64,000 nucleotides of DNA, from sequence record OP172790. One strand, 5' to 3'. The translations under genes and the position numbers were made by a program. The first letter of the stretch is position 1. Each line of letters begins with the position of its first letter. Under the pieces are notes generated by a model. The model was not told where the DNA came from. It ran no database searches and worked only from the letters and a program-made list of their open reading frames with translations. Shown here piece by piece: positions 1 to 9,713 of the stretch. This DNA comes from Escherichia phage ECO319P1.

Positions 1-594
1 AACCTCACTGTTGGTGCTAATTGGGGTATGATTAGCAAAACTGGTGATAGCAAAGCGGCTGGCTTCTTCAACCGTATGGCATCTGCTCTGGGTGCTGGAG
101 ATACAGTGAAAACCGCTGTTGACCTTGACCTGTCAATGGTCTTCGCTAACGCCAAAGGCGAACTGGTAGACATGTGCTACTACGGCAATAAGCGTCTGTT
201 CAGTGGTGCAGTTCTGCACTCTGGTGACGACCTCGTTGGTGACGACGAGCAGAACGAAGATGATAACGAACTGATTAAGTTCGAAGGCATGAAGGTTCCG
301 TTCGATGTTACCACTGTGTACGTTGTACTGAACTCCTTCCGCCATCAGATGTTCGATGAAATCCCATACATCGGCATCTCTTTCTACGAAGGTCTGGTGA
401 ACAAGGGCTCCAAAGGTCTGCGATTCGCTGAGGCTCGTGTTGAGAAAGAGAAAGAAGCTGCTGGCAAAGAGTGCTGCATCCTCGCTAAGATTGTCCGTAC
501 TGGCAAAGGCTGGAACGTGACTCCGCTGTTCGACTACACCTCGGACACCAATCTGCGCGACCTTGCTCGCACTGCAATTCGTAAGCACGGCTAA
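1..594 (+). CDS. TerD-domain protein, 5' end truncated by window edge
   Basis: Frame is open from nt 1 with no upstream stop; product shows DLD...GDD...GDDE acidic motifs and length typical of TerD-fold proteins. Confidence 0.65.
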   Translation, partial: NLTVGANWGMISKTGDSKAAGFFNRMASALGAGDTVKTAVDLDLSMVFANAKGELVDMCYYGNKRLFSGAVLHSGDDLVGDDEQNEDDNELIKFEGMKVPFDVTTVYVVLNSFRHQMFDEIPYIGISFYEGLVNKGSKGLRFAEARVEKEKEAAGKECCILAKIVRTGKGWNVTPLFDYTSDTNLRDLARTAIRKHG

Positions 595-653
595 TCGTGC
601 CAAGCCCACTTTAGGATAGAGGTGGGCAACAACTATAAGGAGAGTAATCCCCG

Positions 654-1079
654 ATGAGTTGGTTTATGTGCTGGTTAGCACTAACTCTTAACATTTACAC
701 GGAGGCAGGTGGAGAGGGTGAGCAAGGTATGAGGATGATTGCTGATGTAGCGGTCACTCGTACTACGCACAAAGATTACCCAGATAACATTAGCAAAGTT
801 ATTCTTCAACCGGGTCAATTTTCTTGGACTTATAACTTAAAGTCGAGGTCTGAGAAAGGATTAGTTGCTTATAATAAGCGTCTCTTAAAGTCTAAGAGAA
901 TGACTAATCCAAAAGAAAGAGAAGCATATGCCATAGCGATGAAAGTCGCGTACAGAGCTTTACAGCCGGGGTATAAACCCAAGTACAGGTATACTCACTT
1001 CTACAGTGGGACAGACAAGCCCAAGTGGGCTAAAAACAAACGTGCCGTCAAACACGGCAACCATTACTTTATCAAATAA
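654..1079 (+). CDS. SleB-like cell wall hydrolase
   Basis: AAGGAG RBS upstream of ATG; EAGGEGEQG...AVT.RT...LQPGQFSW motif pattern typical of SleB/Hydrolase_2 family; hydrophobic N-terminus. Confidence 0.65.
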   Translation: MSWFMCWLALTLNIYTEAGGEGEQGMRMIADVAVTRTTHKDYPDNISKVILQPGQFSWTYNLKSRSEKGLVAYNKRLLKSKRMTNPKEREAYAIAMKVAYRALQPGYKPKYRYTHFYSGTDKPKWAKNKRAVKHGNHYFIK

Positions 1080-1088
1080 GGATTCACA

Positions 1089-1301
1089 ATGTTCTCCTCC
1101 AACAAACCAACCTTCTCCTCGGCAATGAAGATGTTCACCAAAGCTCAGGAAGAACTGAAAGCTGCTGGTGAAGTGAATGCTGCCGAACTGGCAGAAGCCG
1201 AAGCCGCTGTAGCTGCTGCGAAAGAAGAACGTGATAACATCAATCGCGTTACCTCTTTCTTCGACAACCTGCTGGGTAAAGGCCCGGAGTTGACTAAGTA
1301 A
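1089..1301 (+). CDS. hypothetical protein (Ala/Glu-rich helical)
   Basis: AAGGA RBS, ATG start, tight packing with neighbours. Confidence 0.5.
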   Translation: MFSSNKPTFSSAMKMFTKAQEELKAAGEVNAAELAEAEAAVAAAKEERDNINRVTSFFDNLLGKGPELTK

Positions 1302-1849
1302 TGCGTAAAGTTGCAATCATTGGAGCCTGTATCGGCTCCTTGTTCCTTCTGAGTGGTTGTGATGATAACACTTCCAAGCTGACCGCTGACCAACAGTTCC
1401 AACTGAAACAGATGGAAATGCAGCAAGCTGAGAAGATGCGCAACCAACGTCATGAGTTGGAAATGGCTCGTGCCATGAATCCTGCTCCTGTTATTCAATC
1501 TGAGACTCGCTATGTTGAGTCAGAGCCACAGGTGATTTACCGCGATGTTCCAGCACAACCTGCACCTCAACCCCATTCTGTCAGCCCTGATAGCTATGGG
1601 TACAGTAGCAGCAATAGTGATTCTGGGAGCGGTATTGGCTCACACGTCGCAACGGCAGCCGTAGGTGCTGCTGCTGGCTATTATGCTGGCAAGTACACCT
1701 CAACGCCGAAAGGCCAGCAACAAGTACAGACGATGAAGTCTAAGACTAAATCAATGTACGACACTGGTAAGAAGAAAGCCTACACAGGCTATCGCTTTAC
1801 CAAAAGCAAAACAACCTCAGCGTATCGCTCATTCAAGAAACGAAAGTAA
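1301..1849 (+). CDS. putative lipoprotein
   Basis: N-terminal signal peptide ending in lipobox LLSGC; start overlaps upstream stop (TAATG); basic C-terminus. Confidence 0.6.
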   Translation: MRKVAIIGACIGSLFLLSGCDDNTSKLTADQQFQLKQMEMQQAEKMRNQRHELEMARAMNPAPVIQSETRYVESEPQVIYRDVPAQPAPQPHSVSPDSYGYSSSNSDSGSGIGSHVATAAVGAAAGYYAGKYTSTPKGQQQVQTMKSKTKSMYDTGKKKAYTGYRFTKSKTTSAYRSFKKRK

Positions 1850-1861
1850 CGGAGATTCAAC

Positions 1862-2230
1862 ATGAACCTGATTGAAGTACTGAAAGACCAACTGGATAAA
1901 GAAGGCGCGATTCTGGACAACGCAAAGCGTGACGATAAAAACGTTCGTGCTGCGATTCAAGTCTCGAAAGAGATTCGTAAAGTGCTGGCTGAAAACATTC
2001 GCGGCATCAAAGCGCAGATTAAAGAGTCTGACCGTGCATCGAATGGTGCTAAGTCAAGCCTGCTGCGTCGCTCTCTGGCGTTCTTCCGTGAACAGTACAA
2101 CGACCTGTTCGAAGAAATCTACATGCTTCGTGCTCAGAAGGGCATGATTACTTCCTATCTGAAAACTCAGACGGAACTGGTTGTGTCGCTGGATGCCGAA
2201 TGGGAGAAAGCGAAACGTGAAGCTCAGTAA
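1862..2230 (+). CDS. hypothetical protein
   Basis: GGAG RBS, ATG start, 122 aa ORF. Confidence 0.55.
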   Translation: MNLIEVLKDQLDKEGAILDNAKRDDKNVRAAIQVSKEIRKVLAENIRGIKAQIKESDRASNGAKSSLLRRSLAFFREQYNDLFEEIYMLRAQKGMITSYLKTQTELVVSLDAEWEKAKREAQ

Positions 2231-2465
2231 GTTCAACATCTTTAAGTTGTGCTTTGTAGCTGTGTTGGCGGCCTTAATGGCTGCCTTCTTCTACTTCCGT
2301 GGCATCGACTTCAAAGACTGTCTCATGGCGAAGTATGACCTTCAGCGTGAAACAACCTTCCGCATCCTGACTGGTGCTTGCACTACGAAGGGCAAAGACG
2401 GAAGTCTGATTTATGTTAAGCAACTTCGTGGCTTCGGCGATGATGTTGTTGACGACCATCAATAA
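2193..2465 (+). CDS. hypothetical small membrane protein (start uncertain)
   Basis: ORF with one predicted TM helix (LCFVAVLAALMAAFFYF); track start 2181 is TTG, alternative ATG 2193 or GTG 2214. Confidence 0.3.
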   Translation: MPNGRKRNVKLSKFNIFKLCFVAVLAALMAAFFYFRGIDFKDCLMAKYDLQRETTFRILTGACTTKGKDGSLIYVKQLRGFGDDVVDDHQ

Positions 2466-2475
2466 GAGGTGACAA

Positions 2476-3348
2476 ATGGTTTGGGCAGTTATTGAAAACC
2501 ACAAAGGCCAACGGGAAGATTTCCGTAAGCCGTGCTTTGGTTTCATGTCCTACATTCATCAGTGGTACGAAACTGACGAGTGGGACGACGAAGAGGACGA
2601 TTGGGAATACGAATACCTTGAAGGTTTCGAACCCGCCGAACTCAACCTCATGCACTACTTCCCTGATTTCCGCAACCATATGCCGAGTCAGGATTTGCCT
2701 GAGTTCCGTGAGAAGTATCTGCCTGTGCTGTTGGAAGCTGTGAAGCTTCTGCCTCAGTATTACTCGAACGTTGAGTACACTGCTCCAACTGATAGCACTC
2801 AGGAGACGTTTACGTTCGCCCTGCAAGATGCGAACATGCAAACGACAATCATCGGTGCTATGATGCTGCGTAACATTGCTCAGTATTCTGGTATGCGTCG
2901 CGTGTTCCGTCTTTGCGTTGACGCTGGCCTTGACCCTGTAACCTGCTTCGTTATGGGTAACATGTACAGCAGCAACTACTGCTCGTTTGGTGCTGATGCT
3001 GGTAAGTATCTGGCAAACCCTGTTCACTACGGTGACGAGTCAATCTTCCCAGATGAAACTCGCGCTTGTGATATCCAGGCGTTCATTGACGGTAAGCTCG
3101 GTCACATCTACCAAGGTGTGTGGGGCGATACTGAAAATGGTTATGGTCGTTATGGTGAGTATGACGGTGATACCGCACCTCGCTTTGAACGTACCGGTAA
3201 TCGTTCAACCATCACTGACACTCTGCTGTTGGCTGATGATTACGTTGACTCACCATTGCTGATGGATATCGAAATCGGTGTTTGTTCATCGGCTCGCTTC
3301 AGTGATGAAGAGTTGATTGTTCTTGCTGGTAAAATTACTGGTAAATAA
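2476..3348 (+). CDS. hypothetical protein, first gene of amidoligase cluster (acidic W/E/D-rich N-region)
   Basis: AGAGGTG RBS, ATG start, 290 aa; co-oriented and tightly spaced with downstream ligase genes. Confidence 0.6.
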   Translation: MVWAVIENHKGQREDFRKPCFGFMSYIHQWYETDEWDDEEDDWEYEYLEGFEPAELNLMHYFPDFRNHMPSQDLPEFREKYLPVLLEAVKLLPQYYSNVEYTAPTDSTQETFTFALQDANMQTTIIGAMMLRNIAQYSGMRRVFRLCVDAGLDPVTCFVMGNMYSSNYCSFGADAGKYLANPVHYGDESIFPDETRACDIQAFIDGKLGHIYQGVWGDTENGYGRYGEYDGDTAPRFERTGNRSTITDTLLLADDYVDSPLLMDIEIGVCSSARFSDEELIVLAGKITGK

Positions 3349-3359
3349 AGGATAAAACA

Positions 3360-4304
3360 ATGTCAGTAAAATTCGACGTAGTTTACAAGGATGGATTCAA
3401 ATTGAAAATGACCTCAATTTGTTTCGGTGTAATGGAGAAGGGGCGCTGGAATGAAATCAACGGGTATCGCAATATGCCCGCTGAGAATCATCAGGATGCA
3501 GACCAGCGCTTCATTCAGTTCTACACCAACGCTTACATTCACCCGATGTGGGCGTATGAAGAAGGTATTAAGCGCGATTGGCCTCGTGGTGAAGATAACC
3601 AAGAAGGTCGAAACAAAGCTTCGAAGAACTTCATCAATGAGATGAAAGAACTTCAGAAAGACATGCCGTTCCTGCAAGGGCTTGTCACCTTCCATCCATT
3701 GTTACACGTTGCCCGTGTGCATATCAAAAATCACACGGTTGACCAGATTATGCTGGCATTGTTTTTGGTACGTAACATGTGCCATTACAGCAACAACTGT
3801 TTCACTTACCGCTGGTTACGTGAGACATACAACATGCGTCCAATGCTGGCGGCAGTAATGTGCCATCAGTTCTCAATGGACTTAGGCTCGTTCGGGCGTC
3901 ATTCGTTCTCTCCAGCATGTCTGGGTGAGTACAACTGGATTAACCCCCAGACGTTCGGTAAAGAGTCGTTGCTTCGTTTCATGACCCATACGAAAGAAAC
4001 AGAATTCGAATATCGTCAGGGCATGTGGAAGGACAGTAAAGGTTATCGTCGTGACGACCACTTTGCTCGTAACGATGTTATCTTCGACAGCGAAATCGGC
4101 GGCTCGAACAAATACTGGAAGATGGTAGCACCATTCAGTATTCCGGGCGACGAAGCGATTAATGCCAATCAATGTAAAGACCGTTATAGCGGTATGGTGA
4201 TTGGTCGCAGTTGGAACCACGAACTGAGCCAAGGTGAAGTAGAGAACTACATCAGTGGTGTTCTCGAACTTCTGGCAGAAAACAATATCCCAGCAACTCT
4301 CTAA
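3360..4304 (+). CDS. hypothetical protein (amidoligase cluster)
   Basis: AAGGA RBS, ATG start, 314 aa, 11-nt spacing from upstream gene. Confidence 0.6.
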   Translation: MSVKFDVVYKDGFKLKMTSICFGVMEKGRWNEINGYRNMPAENHQDADQRFIQFYTNAYIHPMWAYEEGIKRDWPRGEDNQEGRNKASKNFINEMKELQKDMPFLQGLVTFHPLLHVARVHIKNHTVDQIMLALFLVRNMCHYSNNCFTYRWLRETYNMRPMLAAVMCHQFSMDLGSFGRHSFSPACLGEYNWINPQTFGKESLLRFMTHTKETEFEYRQGMWKDSKGYRRDDHFARNDVIFDSEIGGSNKYWKMVAPFSIPGDEAINANQCKDRYSGMVIGRSWNHELSQGEVENYISGVLELLAENNIPATL

Positions 4305-4316
4305 GGTAATAAAGAC

Positions 4317-5114
4317 ATGCGTAAGATTTACTTAGGTTCAGACCCAGAGCTGTTTACTCGTGATGCAAACGGCCTCGTATCATCTGTAGCTGGTAAGCTC
4401 GGTGCTGATAAGTATCACAAACGCCATGTCACGGACGACATTCGCATTCAGGAAGATAACGTGCTGGTTGAATTTGATATCAACCCGCATGGCACATTTG
4501 CAGGGTTCAACGATAACATGATGCGTGGTATCGCTGCCTGTAATGACGCTGCGAAATCTGTCGGTCACGAAGTTGACCTGACTATCTGCTCTCACGTTTT
4601 CAGCGATGCAGAGCTTCGTACTTTCCACAAAGACGCATTCGTGTTTGGCTGTGAGCCAGACTTCAATGCCCTGACTGGTTCTCGTAATGCGAAACCGGCT
4701 GCTGCGGATGTAGGTCTGCGTACTGCCGGTGGTCATATTCATATCGGTTATAACGAAGACCGCAACGTTGACTCTGAATCTCAGAAGATTCTGGGTGTAA
4801 TGTGTGATTACTTCCTCGGTATGCCAGCTATCCTTCTGGATGGTGACGACCGTCGTAAAGAACTGTATGGTAAAGCTGGAGCTTGCCGCTTCAAAACCTA
4901 CGGTATCGAGTATCGTGTTCTGTCCAACTTCTGGACTCTGGACGATAAGATGCGTCTGTGGGCTTGGGAACAGGCTCATAAAGCATACGACTTCACTGTT
5001 GGTGATGCAATGGTGTTGGCGTCAATTGTTGACCCGGAAGAAATTCAGCGTGTCATTAATAACAATGACAAGGCAATGGCTGAACATTACATCAAGCTGC
5101 TGGAGATTATGTAA
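4317..5114 (+). CDS. putative carboxylate-amine (COOH-NH2) ligase, amidoligase family paralog A
   Basis: Motifs GSDPELF (acidic pair), GGHIHIG (His-x-His), GIEYRV (Glu-x-Arg) matching the pattern of the neighbouring ligase paralog and of glutamine-synthetase-like amidoligases. Confidence 0.55.
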   Translation: MRKIYLGSDPELFTRDANGLVSSVAGKLGADKYHKRHVTDDIRIQEDNVLVEFDINPHGTFAGFNDNMMRGIAACNDAAKSVGHEVDLTICSHVFSDAELRTFHKDAFVFGCEPDFNALTGSRNAKPAAADVGLRTAGGHIHIGYNEDRNVDSESQKILGVMCDYFLGMPAILLDGDDRRKELYGKAGACRFKTYGIEYRVLSNFWTLDDKMRLWAWEQAHKAYDFTVGDAMVLASIVDPEEIQRVINNNDKAMAEHYIKLLEIM

Positions 5115-5692
5115 TGGCTTTACACGATGATTTTGCAATGTACTATAATGGTACATATGTTGGTTATCGTAAAGATGGGGATGTAGTCCCCTTCTACATC
5201 GAAGCGGTTGATACTGACCGCTCAATCTTTGATTACTCAGAAGCGTCTGAGTCAGAGATGTTCGGTGACCAAGCGCTGAGTGCGTTGACCTTCTACGGAA
5301 GTATCGACGGCAACCGTGCAACGATTAACCACGACGACCCGAATCTGGTTCTTGAAATGCCAGATAGTAAGTACATCCAGTTCCGTGGACGTTACTATTG
5401 GGTTCAATGGCGAGCGAACCGTTCCACTAAGAAGGGAATGGGTCAGCGTCGTCTCTCAGGCATTCCGCAATTCAACCATGAAGTCGCTCGTGCGATGTTC
5501 TCGGAGCGGTCTGCACCAAACGTAATCGCAGGATGCTTGTTACGTCAGAATAATGAACTTCACTACAAGGGTGTGGTGGTCGGTTCAATCAATGGCAACG
5601 AAGTTGTGTTGGTTTCCGAAGCTGCTCACCTGTTACGTTTTGTATCACGGGAGATGCAGGAATGCCAAGTTTCGGTAGCACAAGCGGGCTAA
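5114..5692 (+). CDS. hypothetical protein (amidoligase cluster)
   Basis: Start overlaps upstream stop (TAATG), GGAG RBS; 192 aa. Confidence 0.55.
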   Translation: MALHDDFAMYYNGTYVGYRKDGDVVPFYIEAVDTDRSIFDYSEASESEMFGDQALSALTFYGSIDGNRATINHDDPNLVLEMPDSKYIQFRGRYYWVQWRANRSTKKGMGQRRLSGIPQFNHEVARAMFSERSAPNVIAGCLLRQNNELHYKGVVVGSINGNEVVLVSEAAHLLRFVSREMQECQVSVAQAG

Positions 5693-7173
5693 GTGAGTCG
5701 TCATTAGCAACCCTCCGCGAAGCGGGGGTGATTGACTCAGAAGGTAACTGGTTAACTGGTAACATGCCTTCACCTTTTGGTGGAGGTTTGGTTGGTTATA
5801 ACACTGCTGATGTTATTCCTGACACACCACCACCAAGACCAGCACGGACAAGACACGATGGGCGACCATTGCGTTCAAGTTCGTATGCCGACATGTTCGG
5901 TGGTCTTCGTGCTCAGCCGGTTGCTATGGATGAAATGCCTGAGACTTCAGGTGATTATTATATTTCTGGTAATGTAGAGGCCGATTCAGAAATGCAAACT
6001 ATTGCGCAAATTGTTGGGCACCGTGCAACTTATCCAACTCTTGAGAAGCATCCGCTGATTGTAGGTACAAATTTGGCAGGTGTTGAGATTGAGTTGGAGG
6101 GCATCACTGCTCGTGCTCCACGTTTCAACTACTGGACAGCAAAAGGTGATGGCTCTCTCCGTAACCGTGGGATGGAATTTGTTTGTTCATCTCCGTGGGG
6201 TGGTCGTGACCTGTACAATGCAGCCATTGAAATTGATGGTTGGTTGTTCACTGCTCAGCCAGAAGATACTTGGCGTTGTTCTACTCACGTACACATTGAT
6301 GTTCGTGATATGACTGTGCCGCAGTTGAAGCGAATGATTCTGGCATATGCAGTTTACGAACGTATTCTGTTCAAATGCTCAGGCTTCCATCGTTACAAGA
6401 ATAACTTCTGTGTAGCGTTGGGCTTCGCTCAGGAGTTGGTAACAACTCTGTCTAATGCGTGGGCACTTCCTGATAACCAGTTCATCAGTCGTTTGACTGG
6501 AAATTGGGATAAGTATTCCAGCATCAACATGCTTCCGATTCAGCAGTTCGGCTCTGTCGAATTCCGTATCAGTGAAGCGAAGTGGCGCAAAGGTCGTCTG
6601 ATTCGTTTGGTTAACCGCTTCCTGTCTCTGAAAGAGATTGCGATGCAGCCATTCGAGGGTTCAGAGTCTGAATTCATTCAGATGCTGGTCAATACCCCGA
6701 TTAGCAAAATCATTCGTAAAGGTCTGCCGAAGGTTCTTCCAGATGCAGAGATGGATATCGAGATTGGTTATAAACTGGCTCACGATATCATTAGCATGGC
6801 GGCCTTGCGTCGCCTGTCTATCCGCCCTCTGGTTCCGAATCTGTCAGATGATTCACGACAGTTTAACGTTGAAATCTTCGAGCCGGGTTATGAGCATATT
6901 ATGACTCGTATCAACCGCTCAGATAATAACGTTGAGTTGCCTCGTGAAGCCCCTGCAACTATCAACTTTAGTTGGTGGTATGAAGTTGAGAATCTGATGC
7001 TTCAGATGGGTCATACCTACGAGCGCAGTTGGTTCACAGCATCAAGCAACAACCGTCAGATTCACTCACTGTTCGAAGAGTATTGTCGTGAACGTCGTGC
7101 TGAGCGTCGTCGTCAGGATGAAATCGTTGAACGTGAAGATGATGAAGACGATACCTCTCCAGAGTTCTGGTAA
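5662..7173 (+). CDS. putative carboxylate-amine (COOH-NH2) ligase, amidoligase family paralog B
   Basis: Motifs GVEIELEG, GDGSL, STHVHIDV, GSVEFRI shared with paralog A; N-terminal approx 110 aa low-complexity; start overlaps upstream gene so true start may be later. Confidence 0.6.
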   Translation: MPSFGSTSGLSESSLATLREAGVIDSEGNWLTGNMPSPFGGGLVGYNTADVIPDTPPPRPARTRHDGRPLRSSSYADMFGGLRAQPVAMDEMPETSGDYYISGNVEADSEMQTIAQIVGHRATYPTLEKHPLIVGTNLAGVEIELEGITARAPRFNYWTAKGDGSLRNRGMEFVCSSPWGGRDLYNAAIEIDGWLFTAQPEDTWRCSTHVHIDVRDMTVPQLKRMILAYAVYERILFKCSGFHRYKNNFCVALGFAQELVTTLSNAWALPDNQFISRLTGNWDKYSSINMLPIQQFGSVEFRISEAKWRKGRLIRLVNRFLSLKEIAMQPFEGSESEFIQMLVNTPISKIIRKGLPKVLPDAEMDIEIGYKLAHDIISMAALRRLSIRPLVPNLSDDSRQFNVEIFEPGYEHIMTRINRSDNNVELPREAPATINFSWWYEVENLMLQMGHTYERSWFTASSNNRQIHSLFEEYCRERRAERRRQDEIVEREDDEDDTSPEFW

Positions 7174-7232
7174 GAATAAATGTGGGGTGTAAAAGCCCCA
7201 ACTTCAATGTAAATAGATGAAAGGATTTTTGT

Positions 7233-9203
7233 ATGTGTGGGATTGTTCTCGCTGGTGGTAACTTAATCGCTCGTGATGTTGAACTGTTCGGTCGTCTACT
7301 GTATGCAGATATCGTTCGTGGTGAGCATTCAACGGGTGTGTTCGCAGGGTTTCGTCCTTTTGGTCATGACCCAATCCTGAAACTTCGTAAAGCCGCTGTT
7401 CCGGCAGATATCTTCTTACGCCGCAAAGAGTTATGGGGTGAAGTGCGTGAACACGCAGTTCCTTCAAAGACTGTTGCAAATTCTTTCACAACTGCCTATC
7501 CGAAATTTATGGTAGGCCACAACCGTTATGCAACTCAGGGTGCAATTAACGATACGAACGCTCACCCGTTCAACCACGGTAAAATCACTCTGGTTCACAA
7601 TGGTACATTGACTGACCAGTCTCTGCTCCCAGACCATAAGAACTTCGCTGTTGACAGTGAAAACGTCGCATGGTCAATCAACAAAATCGGTATTGATGAA
7701 ACTATTCAGAAATTGAATGGTGCATTCACTCTGGTTTGGCATAACGCCGAAGACAGCACGGTGAACATCATCCGTAACGAAGAACGTCCATTCCATCTGG
7801 TTGAAACAACTGGTGGTGATTGGTTCGGTGCTTCGGAAGAAGACATGCTTCTGTGGTTAATTAACCGCAAGAAGTTTGCTCCAACAATCAAACGTCACTT
7901 TGAATGTGAAGTAGGTGTTCAGTACGTCTTTGACGTATCCGAAGGCTTCAAGTTCAAGGAGGAACGGAAGCATACGCTTCCAACCTTTCGCTCATATTCC
8001 TACACTGGAAGAACTGGTGGTTATTGGTATGACCAGTGGGATGATGACTATGGGTACGGAAACGGACGAGGAACTTCAACAACTTCTCGCAACCAATCCA
8101 ATAGCCAGAGCTTTAGCTCAAGCTCTTCTAGCGTAACACCGGACAGCCGTTACAAGCAGTTCAATGATATGCTGGAAAGCCACGGCATCAACGTCAAAAT
8201 GGGTGAGCAACTCCGCTTCGAGAGCTTCCAGTTTGACCAGTATCCTAAGTCTCTGGGCAAGGGTAAAATGACCGGGTATACTGGCACTGGCGAGTATATT
8301 GAGGTTCAGGCTCACGGCACTGATATGGGCATCTTTGTTGAAGGTGCTGAGTACGATGGTAAGATTATCTCGTGCTATGAGCAGAATTACATTCTGACAA
8401 TTATCGTTCAAGACCCAAAACCTGCTCATGTTAATCAGACACTGACCCTCGGTGATTTGGTTAACTCGGCGGCAAAGGAAACTCCAATTCCTGATACAGG
8501 GATTAGTCAGGAAGAGTTGAACGAAGAGTACTACGGTGACGAGGAAGAAGACGACGGCAACGAAGTCGAAGTAACCTTGAACGGTGAGGTGTACTCAAAA
8601 AAGGAATGGGAGGGAAACGACTCATTAAATACTTGCGCAAACTGTTCCTCTCCAATCCCCTTCGACGACGTGATTGATACGGTTGTCGATAATGGCGCTG
8701 CATTCTGCCATGATTGCGCAAAGCATTACAACCTGTTACCCCCTGAGACGGAGGAGCCAATTGCTCCTAACCGTTTCGTCTGCCAAAGCTGTGCCAACGA
8801 ATTGCCGGAAGATTTAGAATCGGCAAAGCCGGGTGTCTGCATTCCTTGTCTTTGCGCTGTAACTAAAGACAACAATACGGAAATGGCACGTCAACAGTTA
8901 ATCGAAAAGTACGACCGTTGGGAATCCAATTTGATGCCAGAGGAAGTGGTCACTCCACTGCTTCCGAAACCAACTGAAGTCTCTCTCGGTGAAATTTCAC
9001 TGATTCGCAAGAAGTTGAAAAACAACTTGCTGGTTACTGTTAAGCAGTGGATGAAGATGAACAACTGTGGTTGGTGTCAAAAGCCAATCCAGTGGGTTGA
9101 TGCTGAAGCCACTGAATTTGTTGGTCAGCAGCCATGCTGTCCGGGATGCTCCAAGAAATTAGAGATGGGCATCCTTCCAAAACCTATCAATAAGGATAAA
9201 TGA
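7233..9203 (+). CDS. class-II glutamine amidotransferase-like (Ntn, Cys2) protein with C-terminal multi-CxxC zinc-ribbon region
   Basis: Begins MCGIVLAGG (nucleophile Cys directly after Met) with NRYATQG...HPF motifs of Ntn GATase-II; Ser-rich linker; C-terminal CxxC pairs (CANC..CHDC, CQSC..CIPC, CGWC..CPGC). Confidence 0.7.
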   Translation: MCGIVLAGGNLIARDVELFGRLLYADIVRGEHSTGVFAGFRPFGHDPILKLRKAAVPADIFLRRKELWGEVREHAVPSKTVANSFTTAYPKFMVGHNRYATQGAINDTNAHPFNHGKITLVHNGTLTDQSLLPDHKNFAVDSENVAWSINKIGIDETIQKLNGAFTLVWHNAEDSTVNIIRNEERPFHLVETTGGDWFGASEEDMLLWLINRKKFAPTIKRHFECEVGVQYVFDVSEGFKFKEERKHTLPTFRSYSYTGRTGGYWYDQWDDDYGYGNGRGTSTTSRNQSNSQSFSSSSSSVTPDSRYKQFNDMLESHGINVKMGEQLRFESFQFDQYPKSLGKGKMTGYTGTGEYIEVQAHGTDMGIFVEGAEYDGKIISCYEQNYILTIIVQDPKPAHVNQTLTLGDLVNSAAKETPIPDTGISQEELNEEYYGDEEEDDGNEVEVTLNGEVYSKKEWEGNDSLNTCANCSSPIPFDDVIDTVVDNGAAFCHDCAKHYNLLPPETEEPIAPNRFVCQSCANELPEDLESAKPGVCIPCLCAVTKDNNTEMARQQLIEKYDRWESNLMPEEVVTPLLPKPTEVSLGEISLIRKKLKNNLLVTVKQWMKMNNCGWCQKPIQWVDAEATEFVGQQPCCPGCSKKLEMGILPKPINKDK

Positions 9204-9204
9204 T

Positions 9205-9438
9205 ATGGATAATTCAATGAGTGAAGTGAAGGTTTTGCGTCTGGATTCACCTGTGGTGGTTCGAAAAGTTCCAATGACTGACTTCGGTAGTGATATGCTC
9301 CGAGCCATTCGTCGCTTCCAAACTGAGGCGTATGAACGTGCAAAAGGTCAGAAGGTGGAAATCCCTTATCCTGTGTGTATTCACATGATGATGTCGGATT
9401 ACTGCAAGCTGAAAGGCATCCAAGTAACCAATGGCTGA
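9205..9438 (+). CDS. hypothetical protein
   Basis: AAGGA RBS 8 nt upstream of ATG, immediately after upstream stop. Confidence 0.45.
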   Translation: MDNSMSEVKVLRLDSPVVVRKVPMTDFGSDMLRAIRRFQTEAYERAKGQKVEIPYPVCIHMMMSDYCKLKGIQVTNG

Positions 9439-9643
9439 TAAAGATGTCGAAAAGGCTCGCAAGGAAAGCGAGTCTTGGCACAACCGTCAGATTGGAAACT
9501 TGTTAGAAGAAGAGTGGGAGTACGCAAAACAAATGGGTACTCAGGAGGGCCAAGAGGCCATCTGGTATCTCACTCTTTCTTATGAAACACTGGAAGCAGA
9601 AATCATGGAACACAAACGTGATATCCGTGAACTTCATCTTTGA
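9431..9643 (+). CDS. hypothetical protein
   Basis: ORF overlapping upstream stop; weak RBS. Confidence 0.4.
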   Translation: MADKDVEKARKESESWHNRQIGNLLEEEWEYAKQMGTQEGQEAIWYLTLSYETLEAEIMEHKRDIRELHL

Positions 9644-9713
9644 GTGAGTTATTTATAGGGTGTCGGTGAAGCGCCCTATGTGAAATTCATTCTCAACTAA
9701 AAGGTACTTATCA

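What the first reader, a model, noticed from the sequence alone, without database searches (positions are those of the whole stretch)
1..594. TerD-domain protein encoded by the phage, adjacent to the ligase region
TerD-fold proteins are chiefly bacterial stress-response components. A phage copy at the head of the early region, only 2 kb from the amidoligase cluster, may be functionally tied to that pathway or may handle host membrane or metal stress during infection. The gene is cut by the window edge.
Basis: partly seen in the sequence, partly recalled or inferred. Interest (0 to 1): 0.55.

Follow-up and report, generated by a model that had tools for sequence, protein, structure and literature searches.

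The report
Phage TerZ-type calcium-binding protein gene
The window starts inside a real phage gene for a TerD-family (TerZ-type) calcium-binding protein; relatives already carry annotated copies, and it travels with a membrane ion transporter gene, not with the nearby ligase genes.

Summary
Window 1-594 (+) is the last 197 codons plus stop of a 219-codon gene, so only 22 codons are missing. It matches Pfam TerD above threshold. A 95%-identical ortholog models as a TerD beta-sandwich. Counterparts of the calcium-site residues reported for Klebsiella TerD are kept. dN/dS is about 0.05.

The window is a relative of Cronobacter phage GAP52 (87.7% nt). The gene is the ortholog of GAP52 gp022, whose record already notes similarity to TerZ.

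The gene is a TerZ-type paralog. In relatives it lies in a block of Prs-like, NAMPT-like, TerC, TerD-type and TerZ-type genes. TerZ, TerC and TerD are the set reported as sufficient for full tellurite resistance.

Across phages, TerZ/TerD pairs lie beside one of three unrelated membrane cation transporters: TerC, a Na/Ca exchanger, or a P-type ATPase. The amidoligase cluster occurs in 314 phage records, and most lack TerD.

The best reading is a cytoplasmic calcium-binding partner of a phage-borne cation-transport module. Its benefit to the phage is inferred to be envelope protection or exclusion of rival phages. Ter genes in phages are already published, so this is a new member of a known kind, of modest interest.

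The parts
1..594 (+). 3' 594 nt (197 codons plus TAA stop) of a 219-codon TerZ-type TerD-family gene; the ortholog of GAP52 gp022. The first 22 codons lie outside the window.
   Evidence: Pfam TerD 44.7 bits against a 25.3 cut-off. PHROG 5698 E 9.5e-40. 188/197 residues identical to GAP52 gp022. dN/dS 0.05. AF2 model of the 95%-identical P0001 has pLDDT 86.7, and Foldseek gives TerD structures as top hits. It scores best against TerZ of a canonical terZABCDE operon: 63.9 bits against 40.4 for TerD, 30.0 for TerE and 28.5 for TerA.
22..24 (+). Trp codon (fragment W8, full-length W30), the counterpart of Klebsiella TerD residue 29 of calcium site 2.
   Evidence: Alignment mapping. Invariant in the 50-sequence alignment A1. 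Site list taken from PMC8779313.
25..105 (+). Loop between the first strand and the DLD strand (GMISKTGDSKAAGFFNRMASALGAGDT). It is absent from TerD/TerE. Cellular TerZ has a shorter version (GFLSKLLGGG).
   Evidence: Alignments. pLDDT is below 50 for residues 37-46 and 50-55 of the full-length model.
121..129 (+). D-L-D motif (fragment D41 L42 D43), the counterpart of calcium site 1 residues 40-42 of Klebsiella TerD.
   Evidence: Invariant in alignment A1 as D63 L64 D65.
217..270 (+). Acidic loop HSGDDLVGDDEQNEDDNE, holding the counterparts of calcium ligands 78, 79, 82, 84, 88 and 89 (D76, D77, G80, D82, N89, E90).
   Evidence: H, G, D, D, G and D-N-E are invariant in alignment A1.
585..627 (+). 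Two conserved RNA stem-loops at the gene's 3' end. 585-600 has the stop codon in its loop. 604-627 lies in the spacer before the next gene. Neither is followed by a T-run.
   Evidence: MFE -26.7 kcal/mol, z -3.68. 109 of 111 columns are invariant among window, GAP52, L002 and L004, and both substitutions keep pairing.
654..1079 (+). Downstream neighbour: a Hydrolase_2 (SleB-type) cell-wall hydrolase gene, with the Shine-Dalgarno-like AAGGAGAG at 637-644. Listed as context, not as part of the Ter module.
   Evidence: Pfam PF07486 67.6 bits. The same neighbour is present in GAP52. It lies 1.3 kb downstream in BUCT695 and 6 kb downstream in Privateer.

Best explanation
The gene encodes the TerZ-type member of a small phage-borne Ter module.

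Shown here:
- It is a single-domain TerD-fold beta-sandwich.
- Counterparts of the two calcium sites reported for Klebsiella TerD are kept.
- It is under strong purifying selection.

Shown in close relatives, but lying upstream of the window edge:
- It is co-encoded, on the same strand, with a TerD-type paralog and a TerC/Alx-family inner-membrane metal transporter.
- This TerZ + TerC + TerD set is the one reported to give full tellurite resistance without the toxicity of TerC + TerD alone.
- According to PMC12054061, citing Whelan 1995, transposon insertions in these same three genes reduced or abolished phage inhibition and colicin resistance.

Inferred mechanism: TerZ and TerD are cytoplasmic, calcium-loaded proteins that dock on or regulate the membrane transporter. 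Together they change divalent-cation flux (Ca2+ or Mn2+) and the state of the envelope in the infected cell. TerZ tempers the otherwise harmful TerC-TerD activity.

Inferred benefit: the module is probably expressed from the early cluster. It would protect the infected cell's envelope and ion balance, and would exclude superinfecting phages or pore-forming colicins until lysis.
For: Identity. Pfam TerD is above its cut-off. AF2 gives pLDDT 86.7 and pTM 0.84. Foldseek top hits are B. subtilis SCP2 (9a6r_B, E 2e-16), Streptomyces TerD (3ibz) and Klebsiella TerD (2kxt).

Calcium sites. Of ten reported ligand positions, seven are identical. The other three are N79->D, D88->N and G84->D (site list from PMC8779313).

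Subtype. The window protein and its phage orthologs score best against TerZ. The partner paralog (GAP52 gp020 group) scores best against TerD. The best hit in a canonical plasmid ter island is the gene in the terZ position.

Module. The TerC, TerD-type and TerZ-type genes occur together in GAP52, BUCT695, Privateer, Yersinia P778, Pectobacterium Wc4 and Logan contig L018. The GAP52 TerC reaches TIGR03718 (TerC/Alx) at 297.5 bits against a 246.4 cut-off. TerC is found in only 176 of 50,697 phage records.

Transporter swapping. Other phage loci carry the same TerZ/TerD groups next to a Na_Ca_ex exchanger (Vibrio D93, 1.084.O, L021) or next to a P-type ATPase with Cation_ATPase_N and _C domains (L019). 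Of 43 IMG/VR loci, 38 have TerC, CaCA or a P-ATPase within 7 kb. At 70% identity of the TerZ-type protein these form 15 clusters, and 14 of them have a transporter. All 31 ATPase ORFs carry DKTGT.

Literature. terCD is the functional core but is toxic alone; terZ or terA rescues growth; terZCD gives full resistance (PMC8779313). Insertions in terZ, terC and terD reduced or abolished phage inhibition and colicin resistance, and a terC deletion reduces phage resistance (PMC12054061). TerC family proteins have Mn efflux activity, and meeF lies in the yceCDE-meeF operon (PMC10550928). That YceC/D/E are TerD paralogs is my own knowledge, apart from SCP2 being the top fold hit. Ter genes in phages have been proposed to serve in competition with superinfecting phages (PMC7824862).

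Timing. No 7-11-type late promoter motif occurs on the + strand in window 1-15600. The position is in the cluster that is early in phiEco32-like phages (PMC8948821).
Against: - TerC and the TerD-type partner are not in the window. They are inferred from GAP52 (87.7% nt) and, for TerD only, from L002 (about 96% nt).
- No experiment exists for any phage Ter protein (PMC7881722 says so).
- Calcium binding is inferred from residue conservation only, and three of the ten positions differ.
- Whether TerC transports metals is disputed: Klebsiella TerC did not behave as a Zn/Mn efflux pump when expressed heterologously (PMC12054061).
- The phage lacks TerB and TerA, which some work treats as central.
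- PADLOC has no model that matches these proteins.
- One IMG/VR cluster (L025-L027) has the TerZ/TerD pair with no transporter within 7 kb.
- The transporter survey used HMMs I built from a few sequences. Many of the ATPase-linked contigs come from one metagenome.
Confidence: 0.5

Rival explanations
1. Counter-defence. The phage TerZ/TerD/TerC copies interfere with a host Ter system or with another ion-flux-based abortive-infection response. They could act as dominant-negative subunits, or could pump out calcium that enters when the envelope is breached. The benefit would then be escape from host immunity, not exclusion of rivals.
For: In GAP52 the block lies in the early cluster next to probable counter-defence genes: an Srd-like sigma-70 decoy and a Prs-like/NAMPT-like pair of the NARP1 kind. 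The Ter operon confers phage resistance (PMC12054061). A Proteus mirabilis ter operon is listed in that paper's references.
Against: The phage proteins are only about 28-35% identical to cellular Ter proteins, so they are not recent copies of host subunits. The same module occurs in phages of very different hosts. There is no direct evidence for either a decoy or a calcium-triggered defence.
Confidence: 0.17
2. Nucleotide-linked signalling. TerZ/TerD bind or sense a ribosylated nucleotide made or consumed by the adjacent Prs-like and NAMPT-like enzymes (PRPP, ADPR-PP, NAD-related). This would parallel the phosphoribosyltransferase module of cellular Ter islands.
For: The Prs-like and NAMPT-like genes lie beside the Ter genes in GAP52 and BUCT695. 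In Privateer the NAMPT-like gene ends 10 nt before the TerZ-type gene. In IMG/VR contigs L025-L027 an independently captured TerZ/TerD pair is again followed by Prs-like and NAMPT-like genes; the L025 TerD is 66% identical to a plasmid TerD but only 30% to GAP52 gp020. Cellular Ter islands carry PRTase, HAD, StiP and C-C lyase genes next to TerZ. PMC7824862 describes this signalling model.
Against: The Prs-like/NAMPT-like pair already has an experimentally shown, self-sufficient role in rebuilding NAD+ (bioRxiv 10.1101/2024.02.11.579819). Most phage TerZ/TerD loci have no such pair nearby. No nucleotide-binding site is known in the TerD fold.
Confidence: 0.12
3. One reading: the protein works with the downstream amidoligase cluster (COOH-NH2 ligase, Amidoligase_2, glutamine amidotransferase, ATP-grasp), for example by sensing or being modified by its product.
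For: The cluster is on the same strand, 3.7 kb downstream in the window. Both features are present in the Grimontviridae phages examined. Cellular Ter islands include an ATP-grasp enzyme.
Against: Amidoligase_2 homologs occur in 314 phage records against 35 for TerZ-type genes. 7-11 and phiEco32 have the cluster without TerD. Bacillus and Pectobacterium phages have TerD but are absent from the amidoligase genus counts. The two features are about 11 kb apart in Privateer and BUCT695. Unrelated genes, including a cell-wall hydrolase, lie between them. No Ter-island enzyme has a homolog in the window.
Confidence: 0.06
4. A plain auxiliary resistance gene that gives the infected host tolerance to tellurite or heavy metals, as the database names suggest.
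For: Homologs in other phage records are annotated as tellurite or tellurium resistance proteins. terZCD confers tellurite resistance in E. coli (PMC8779313).
Against: The relatives carry no annotated integrase or repressor in the regions read, so a lytic lifestyle is likely, and a long-term host benefit is then hard to see. Tellurite is rare in nature (PMC8779313). Swapping TerC for calcium transporters in other phages points away from tellurite.
Confidence: 0.05

Closest known systems
GAP52 gp022 (YP_006987742) and the ter genes of Proteus phage Privateer (PMC7881722)
   Same: Direct orthologs. GAP52 gp022 is 188/197 identical over the fragment, and the Privateer protein is about 48% identical. 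They have the same length (218-219 aa) and the same partner genes (TerC, a TerD-type paralog, Prs-like, NAMPT-like).
   Different: The window comes from a distinct phage: 87.7% nt identity to GAP52, and not found in IMG/VR. In Privateer the gene order is rearranged, with the TerZ-type gene directly after the NAMPT-like gene and the endolysin 6 kb away.
TerZ of the plasmid/chromosomal terZABCDE(F) operon (IncHI2 R478 type; here a Pseudomonas plasmid copy, L015)
   Same: It is the best-scoring paralog class. Both have a single TerD domain of about 200 aa, a loop carrying a GF motif after the first strand, and conserved DLD and GD..G..D(D/N)E motifs.
   Different: Identity is only about 29%. The phage loop is about 15 residues longer. 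The phage gene order is TerC-TerD-TerZ, not Z-A-B-C-D-E. There is no TerA, TerB, TerE or TerF, and no PRTase/HAD/StiP/lyase module.
Klebsiella pneumoniae TerD (PDB 2KXT) and Streptomyces TerD (3IBZ)
   Same: Same beta-sandwich fold (Foldseek E 4e-10 and 6e-12; TM about 0.7 on target length). Counterparts of both calcium sites are present.
   Different: 18-20% identity. There is an extra low-confidence loop. An Asn replaces Asp88, an Asp replaces Asn79, and an Asp replaces Gly84.
Bacillus subtilis YceC (SCP2) and the yceCDE-meeF operon
   Same: SCP2 is the top structural match (9a6r_B, 29% identity, E 2e-16). According to PMC10550928, meeF (a TerC family gene) is part of the yceCDE-meeF operon. 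This is the same TerD-plus-TerC pairing.
   Different: It is a cellular stress operon with three TerD paralogs. No phage role is known.
TerD genes and the calcium P-type ATPase of Jug gut phages (PMC12880540)
   Same: These phage genomes carry several terD genes and a calcium-type P-type ATPase preceded by a small co-transcribed gene. Contig L019 found here shows TerD, TerZ-type, an 82-aa gene and a P-type ATPase in a row.
   Different: They have much larger genomes and a different predicted host phylum. The membrane partner is an ATPase, not TerC. In the passages I read, that paper treats the terD genes and the ATPase separately.

Membership tests
TerD domain family (Pfam PF02342) | Significant full-domain match to the family profile | tested here: met
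   The fragment scores 44.7 bits against a 25.3 cut-off, over profile positions 35-184 of 187. Full-length ortholog GAP52 gp022 scores 55.9 bits over 1-184 of 187.
TerD domain family (Pfam PF02342) | TerD-type beta-sandwich fold | tested here: met
   The AF2 model of P0001 (95% identical to the fragment) has pLDDT 86.7 and pTM 0.84. Foldseek probability is 1.00 to 9a6r_B, 3ibz, 2kxt, 2qng and 2qz7. The model is of the ortholog, not of the window sequence itself.
TerD domain family (Pfam PF02342) | Residues of the two Ca2+ sites of Klebsiella TerD (40, 41, 42, 78, 79, 89 and 29, 82, 84, 88) | tested here: met
   Fragment D41, L42, D43, D76, D77, E90 and W8, G80, D82, N89. Seven are identical and three are substitutions (N->D, D->N, G->D) (site list from PMC8779313).
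TerD domain family (Pfam PF02342) | Actual Ca2+ binding | not testable with these tools
   Needs ITC, NMR or 45Ca overlay on purified protein.
TerZ subtype of the TerD family | Closer to TerZ than to TerD, TerE or TerA of a canonical operon | tested here: met
   BLASTP bits against Pseudomonas plasmid TerZ/TerD/TerE/TerA: fragment 63.9/40.4/30.0/28.5; GAP52 gp022 85.5/43.5/32.0/32.0. All seven phage orthologs tested behave the same way. Only one reference operon was used, and no tree was built.
TerZ subtype of the TerD family | First gene of a terZABCDE operon | tested here: not met
   In GAP52 and relatives the order is TerC, small ORF, TerD-type, small ORF, TerZ-type. TerA and TerB are absent.
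Complete Ter stress-response system (as summarised in PMC7824862) | TerB, TelA/TerF-type sub-membrane components and a PRTase/HAD signal-synthesis module alongside TerC and TerD | tested here: not met
   The window has no homolog of TerA, TerB, vWA, ATP-grasp, PRTase_2, HAD, StiP or HpcH. GAP52 has only TerC and two TerD-family genes. It is an abbreviated module.
Minimal functional terZ-terC-terD set (PMC8779313) | Co-encoded TerZ-type, TerC and TerD-type genes | tested here: inconclusive
   Met in GAP52, BUCT695, Privateer, P778, Wc4 and L018. For this phage, only the TerZ-type gene is inside the window. L002 (96% nt) shows the TerD-type gene upstream. TerC has not been seen for this exact phage.
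Known anti-phage defence systems (PADLOC-DB 2.0) | Match to a defence-system protein model | tested here: not met
   No hit at E <= 0.01 for the TerZ-type, TerD-type or TerC proteins, or for the small neighbouring proteins.

The most novel reading that the evidence does not exclude
Phage TerZ/TerD pairs are a portable cytoplasmic calcium-binding unit that plugs into any of three unrelated membrane cation transporters: TerC/Alx, CaCA Na/Ca exchanger, or P-type ATPase of the calcium-pump architecture. Phages of very different families would then use this cassette to control cytosolic calcium (or manganese) in the infected cell. If so, the long-unexplained phage-inhibition and colicin-resistance phenotypes of the Ter operon come down to divalent-cation handling at the inner membrane. 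The GAP52-type three-gene module would be a very small system in which to test that.
Probability: 0.35. Interest if true: 0.6.

Novelty: new member of a known kind. Interest (0 to 1): 0.3.

Why it matters
By itself the gene is an ordinary ortholog of a gene whose TerZ similarity was already noted. Its value is as an entry point.

The Ter operon has been known for decades to block phages and colicins, with no accepted mechanism. Phages have trimmed it to three genes, and in some lineages have exchanged the membrane component for recognised calcium-transporter families. That pattern makes a concrete hypothesis testable in a small, genetically tractable phage-host pair: TerD-family proteins act as calcium-dependent partners of cation transporters.

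It also cautions against reading the nearby amidoligase cluster as functionally linked merely because it is close.

Tried and rejected
- Recovering the exact upstream sequence. A 44-nt exact-match scan of IMG/VR found nothing. A close-relative protein scan of IMG/VR also found nothing. The missing N-terminus was therefore taken from relatives: GAP52 and Logan contigs L002-L004, reached by an exact look-up of the neighbouring endolysin.
- NCBIfam has no TerZ- or TerD-specific model. The only hit was a sub-threshold match to a TerD-like region of a RING protein model.
- PADLOC gave no hits.
- The key Ter comparative-genomics paper (Anantharaman et al. 2012, PMC4104200) is not held. Its content is cited only through PMC7824862 and PMC12054061.
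- The sigma-70 promoter scan found no site in window 1-2600 and nothing above shuffle expectation around the GAP52 Ter genes. The 7-11-type late-promoter motif is absent near the gene. Timing therefore rests on position only.
- The antisense ORF 133-609 (158 aa) was rejected as a shadow of the + strand gene, given the Pfam match and dN/dS in the + frame.
This is rejected: all orthologs are 218-221 aa single-domain proteins.

Full report
**What is at 1-594**

Frame +1 is open from the first base to a TAA at 592-594. The 197 encoded residues match Pfam TerD (PF02342) at 44.7 bits against a gathering score of 25.3, over profile positions 35-184 of 187. They also match PHROG 5698, a family of unknown function, at E 9.5e-40. 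A profile built from homologs finds no second TerD-family ORF in the 64 kb window. BLASTP finds no TerA, TerB, TerC, vWA, Prs, NAMPT or CaCA homolog there either. The antisense ORF 133-609 is a shadow ORF.

**Source and completeness**

Bases 1-8000 are 87.7% identical to Cronobacter phage vB_CsaP_GAP52 (Grimontviridae, Crifsvirus) and 86.7% identical to phage A24, on the reverse strand of those records. The ortholog is GAP52 gp022, 219 aa. Its record note already reads 'similar to ... tellurium resistance protein TerZ'.

An exact look-up of the neighbouring endolysin returned short Logan contigs about 96% identical to the window. These carry the complete 219-aa gene. The fragment is 188/197 identical to gp022. 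dN/dS is 0.053 against GAP52 and 0.073 against L002.

The exact phage was not found in IMG/VR.

**Fold and sites**

An AlphaFold2 model of P0001 (95% identical to the fragment), built with a 50-sequence alignment, has mean pLDDT 86.7 and pTM 0.84. It is a beta-sandwich with a C-terminal helix and a low-confidence loop at residues 37-55. Foldseek against the PDB gives probability 1.00 to:
- B. subtilis SCP2 (9a6r_B, E 2e-16)
- Streptomyces TerD (3ibz)
- Klebsiella TerD (2kxt)
- two further TerD homologs

PMC8779313 lists the Klebsiella TerD calcium ligands as 40, 41, 42, 78, 79, 89 (site 1) and 29, 82, 84, 88 (site 2). In my alignment these map to fragment D41, L42, D43, D76, D77, E90 and W8, G80, D82, N89. 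Seven are identical and three are substitutions. The motif residues are invariant across the 50 homologs. Calcium binding is therefore plausible but untested.

**Which paralog**

I compared the protein with a canonical plasmid ter island (L015). That island runs ATP-grasp, PRTase, phosphatase, StiP, HpcH, HAD, then TerZ-TerA-TerB-TerC-TerD-TerE. The fragment scores 63.9 bits to TerZ against 40.4, 30.0 and 28.5 to TerD, TerE and TerA. Every phage ortholog tested behaves the same way.

The second phage paralog (GAP52 gp020 and its orthologs) scores best to TerD. The two phage groups barely detect each other (about 20 bits), yet each is conserved across phage families.

The nearest cellular relatives (about 35% identity) are named TerZ by JGI. 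One of them sits at the end of a canonical island: TerB, TerC, TerD, TerD, PRTase_2, HAD, StiP, C-C lyase, TerZ.

**Neighbourhood**

- GAP52: Srd-like decoy, Prs-like, NAMPT-like, small ORF, TerC, small ORF, TerD-type, small ORF, TerZ-type, endolysin, then the ligase cluster. The GAP52 TerC scores 139 bits on Pfam and passes TIGR03718 (TerC/Alx).
- BUCT695 keeps this order.
- Privateer has TerC and the TerD-type gene together, with the TerZ-type gene 10 nt after the NAMPT-like gene.
- Yersinia P778 and Pectobacterium Wc4 (the latter classified in Ounavirinae) have TerC, TerD-type and TerZ-type genes with no ligase cluster nearby.
- Bacillus phage Shanette has a TerD-family gene directly followed by TerC.
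- Two Vibrio phage lineages and a Logan contig carry three tandem TerD-family genes, a roughly 150-aa protein, and then a Na_Ca_ex exchanger in place of TerC. Phage 1.084.O also has an ion-channel-like gene.
- A 156 kb contig carries TerD, a TerZ-type gene, an 82-aa gene and a P-type ATPase with Cation_ATPase_N and _C domains.

**Survey**

A degenerate-pattern scan of IMG/VR gave 43 loci with a TerZ-type relative. I searched them with HMMs built from the sequences already fetched. Within 7 kb:
- 31 loci have a P-type ATPase, all with the DKTGT motif
- 5 have TerC
- 2 have a CaCA exchanger
- 5 have none of these

Of the five without a transporter, one (L024) is a Privateer-like phage whose TerC I presume lies just outside the flank, by analogy with L023. 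One is cut by a contig end. Three belong to one cluster. After clustering the TerZ-type proteins at 70% identity, 14 of 15 clusters have a transporter.

The base rate of TerC in phage records is 176 of 50,697. These numbers are rough. The HMMs are home-made, and many ATPase-linked contigs come from one metagenome. Even so, the pattern of one soluble pair with three unrelated cation transporters is clear.

**The ligase idea**

Amidoligase_2 homologs occur in 314 phage records, including 7-11 and phiEco32. Neither is among the 35 records with a TerZ-type gene. Bacillus and Pectobacterium phages with TerD do not appear in the amidoligase genus counts. The two features are about 11 kb apart in Privateer and BUCT695. 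None of the Ter-island enzymes has a homolog in the window. Proximity in this window is best read as two accessory blocks of the same early cluster.

**Mechanism**

The literature supplies the functional frame:
- terC and terD are the core of tellurite resistance but are toxic alone. terZ or terA restores growth, and terZCD gives full resistance (PMC8779313).
- Insertions in terZ, terC and terD reduced or abolished phage inhibition and colicin resistance. A terC deletion reduces phage resistance in Klebsiella (PMC12054061).
- TerC family proteins have Mn efflux activity and work at the Sec translocon. B. subtilis meeF lies in the yceCDE-meeF operon (PMC10550928).
- Iyer et al. proposed that phage Ter genes serve in competition with superinfecting phages (PMC7824862).
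- The Privateer paper states that no phage Ter protein has been tested (PMC7881722).

I therefore commit to this reading. The TerZ-type protein is a calcium-binding cytoplasmic partner that, with the TerD-type paralog, acts on a TerC transporter to alter divalent-cation flux and envelope state in the infected cell. TerZ limits the toxicity of TerC-TerD.

Steps that are shown: family, fold, subtype, selection, and gene association in relatives. Steps that are inferred: calcium binding, physical interaction, cation transport, early expression, and the benefit (exclusion or envelope protection). Confidence is about 0.5 for the mechanism. The family assignment itself is near certain.

**An unresolved pattern**

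The one IMG/VR cluster without a transporter has its TerZ/TerD pair followed by Prs-like and NAMPT-like genes. Its TerD is 66% identical to a plasmid TerD but only 30% to GAP52 gp020, so the capture was independent. Such Prs-like/NAMPT-like pairs are the NARP1 NAD+-rebuilding pathway (bioRxiv 10.1101/2024.02.11.579819). A second, independent adjacency to Ter genes keeps a nucleotide-linked role alive as a minor rival.

**Verdict**

The proposed link to the ligase cluster is not supported. The membrane or metal alternative is supported by context. Phage Ter genes are already annotated and discussed, so this is a new member of a known kind. Interest is 0.3. The transporter-swapping pattern is the part worth following.

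Noticed in passing
window 585-627: Two stem-loops lie at the end of the TerZ-type gene. 585-600 has the stop codon in its loop, and 604-627 lies in the spacer. MFE is -26.7 kcal/mol, z -3.7. 109 of 111 surrounding bases are identical among window, GAP52 and two Logan contigs, although the gene body is only about 91-92% identical. Both substitutions keep pairing. There is no T-run, so this may be a processing or stability element rather than a terminator.
   Followed up: partly
window 1301-1849 (+): A 182-aa ORF whose N-terminus looks like a lipoprotein signal (MRKVAIIGACIGSLFLLSGC). The rest is Ser/Gly/Lys-rich, with no Pfam match. It is an envelope-directed protein in the early cluster, the ortholog of GAP52 gp025.
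   Followed up: partly
window 654-1079 (+): A Hydrolase_2 (SleB-type) cell-wall hydrolase gene, annotated as endolysin in GAP52. It sits in the early cluster directly after the Ter gene and far from the spanin genes. GAP52 has a second endolysin (gp069) elsewhere.
   Followed up: no
window 1-594; GAP52 locus L001 4984-5559 and 5935-6594: The TerZ-type and TerD-type genes have higher GC and GC3 (0.50-0.51 and 0.54-0.56) than their neighbours (mostly 0.42-0.48 GC). Window GC overall is 0.44. This could reflect horizontal origin or high expression.
   Followed up: partly
L001 5855-5950 (GAP52), L002 1218-1313, L003: An unannotated 31-codon ORF (MQLPTGF[I/L]VLLVILYTLNALQQEGYLSWLSF) that looks like one transmembrane helix. 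It has a TAAGGAG Shine-Dalgarno sequence and overlaps the TerZ-type start codon by 17 nt. Between GAP52 and L002 it has five nucleotide differences, four of them synonymous. It lies just upstream of the window edge. It is absent from BUCT695 and P778.
   Followed up: partly
L013 7650-8111, L014 7638-8093, L021 8206-8667, L020 8317-8820: A conserved protein of about 150 aa lies between the tandem TerD genes and the transporter in Vibrio-phage-type loci. It has no Pfam hit but aligns to a plasmid TerB by profile comparison (hhalign probability 76%, E 2e-5). It may be a divergent TerB.
   Followed up: partly
L025 6830-12616 (also L026, L027); L001 1091-3609; L010 6260-9648: TerZ/TerD pairs lie next to Prs-like plus NAMPT-like (NARP1-type) genes in two independently acquired cases. 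No explanation was established.
   Followed up: partly
window 2476-4304 (+): Two conserved ORFs (290 and 314 aa) with no Pfam match lie directly upstream of the COOH-NH2 ligase gene. They are homologous to 7-11 proteins according to the GAP52 notes, so they probably belong to the ligase cluster.
   Followed up: no
phage collection: TerC homologs occur alone, with no TerZ-type hit in the search, in many Phapecoctavirus-like Escherichia and Klebsiella phages of about 150 kb (for example phAPEC8). Some are annotated as Alx-like redox modulators.
   Followed up: no
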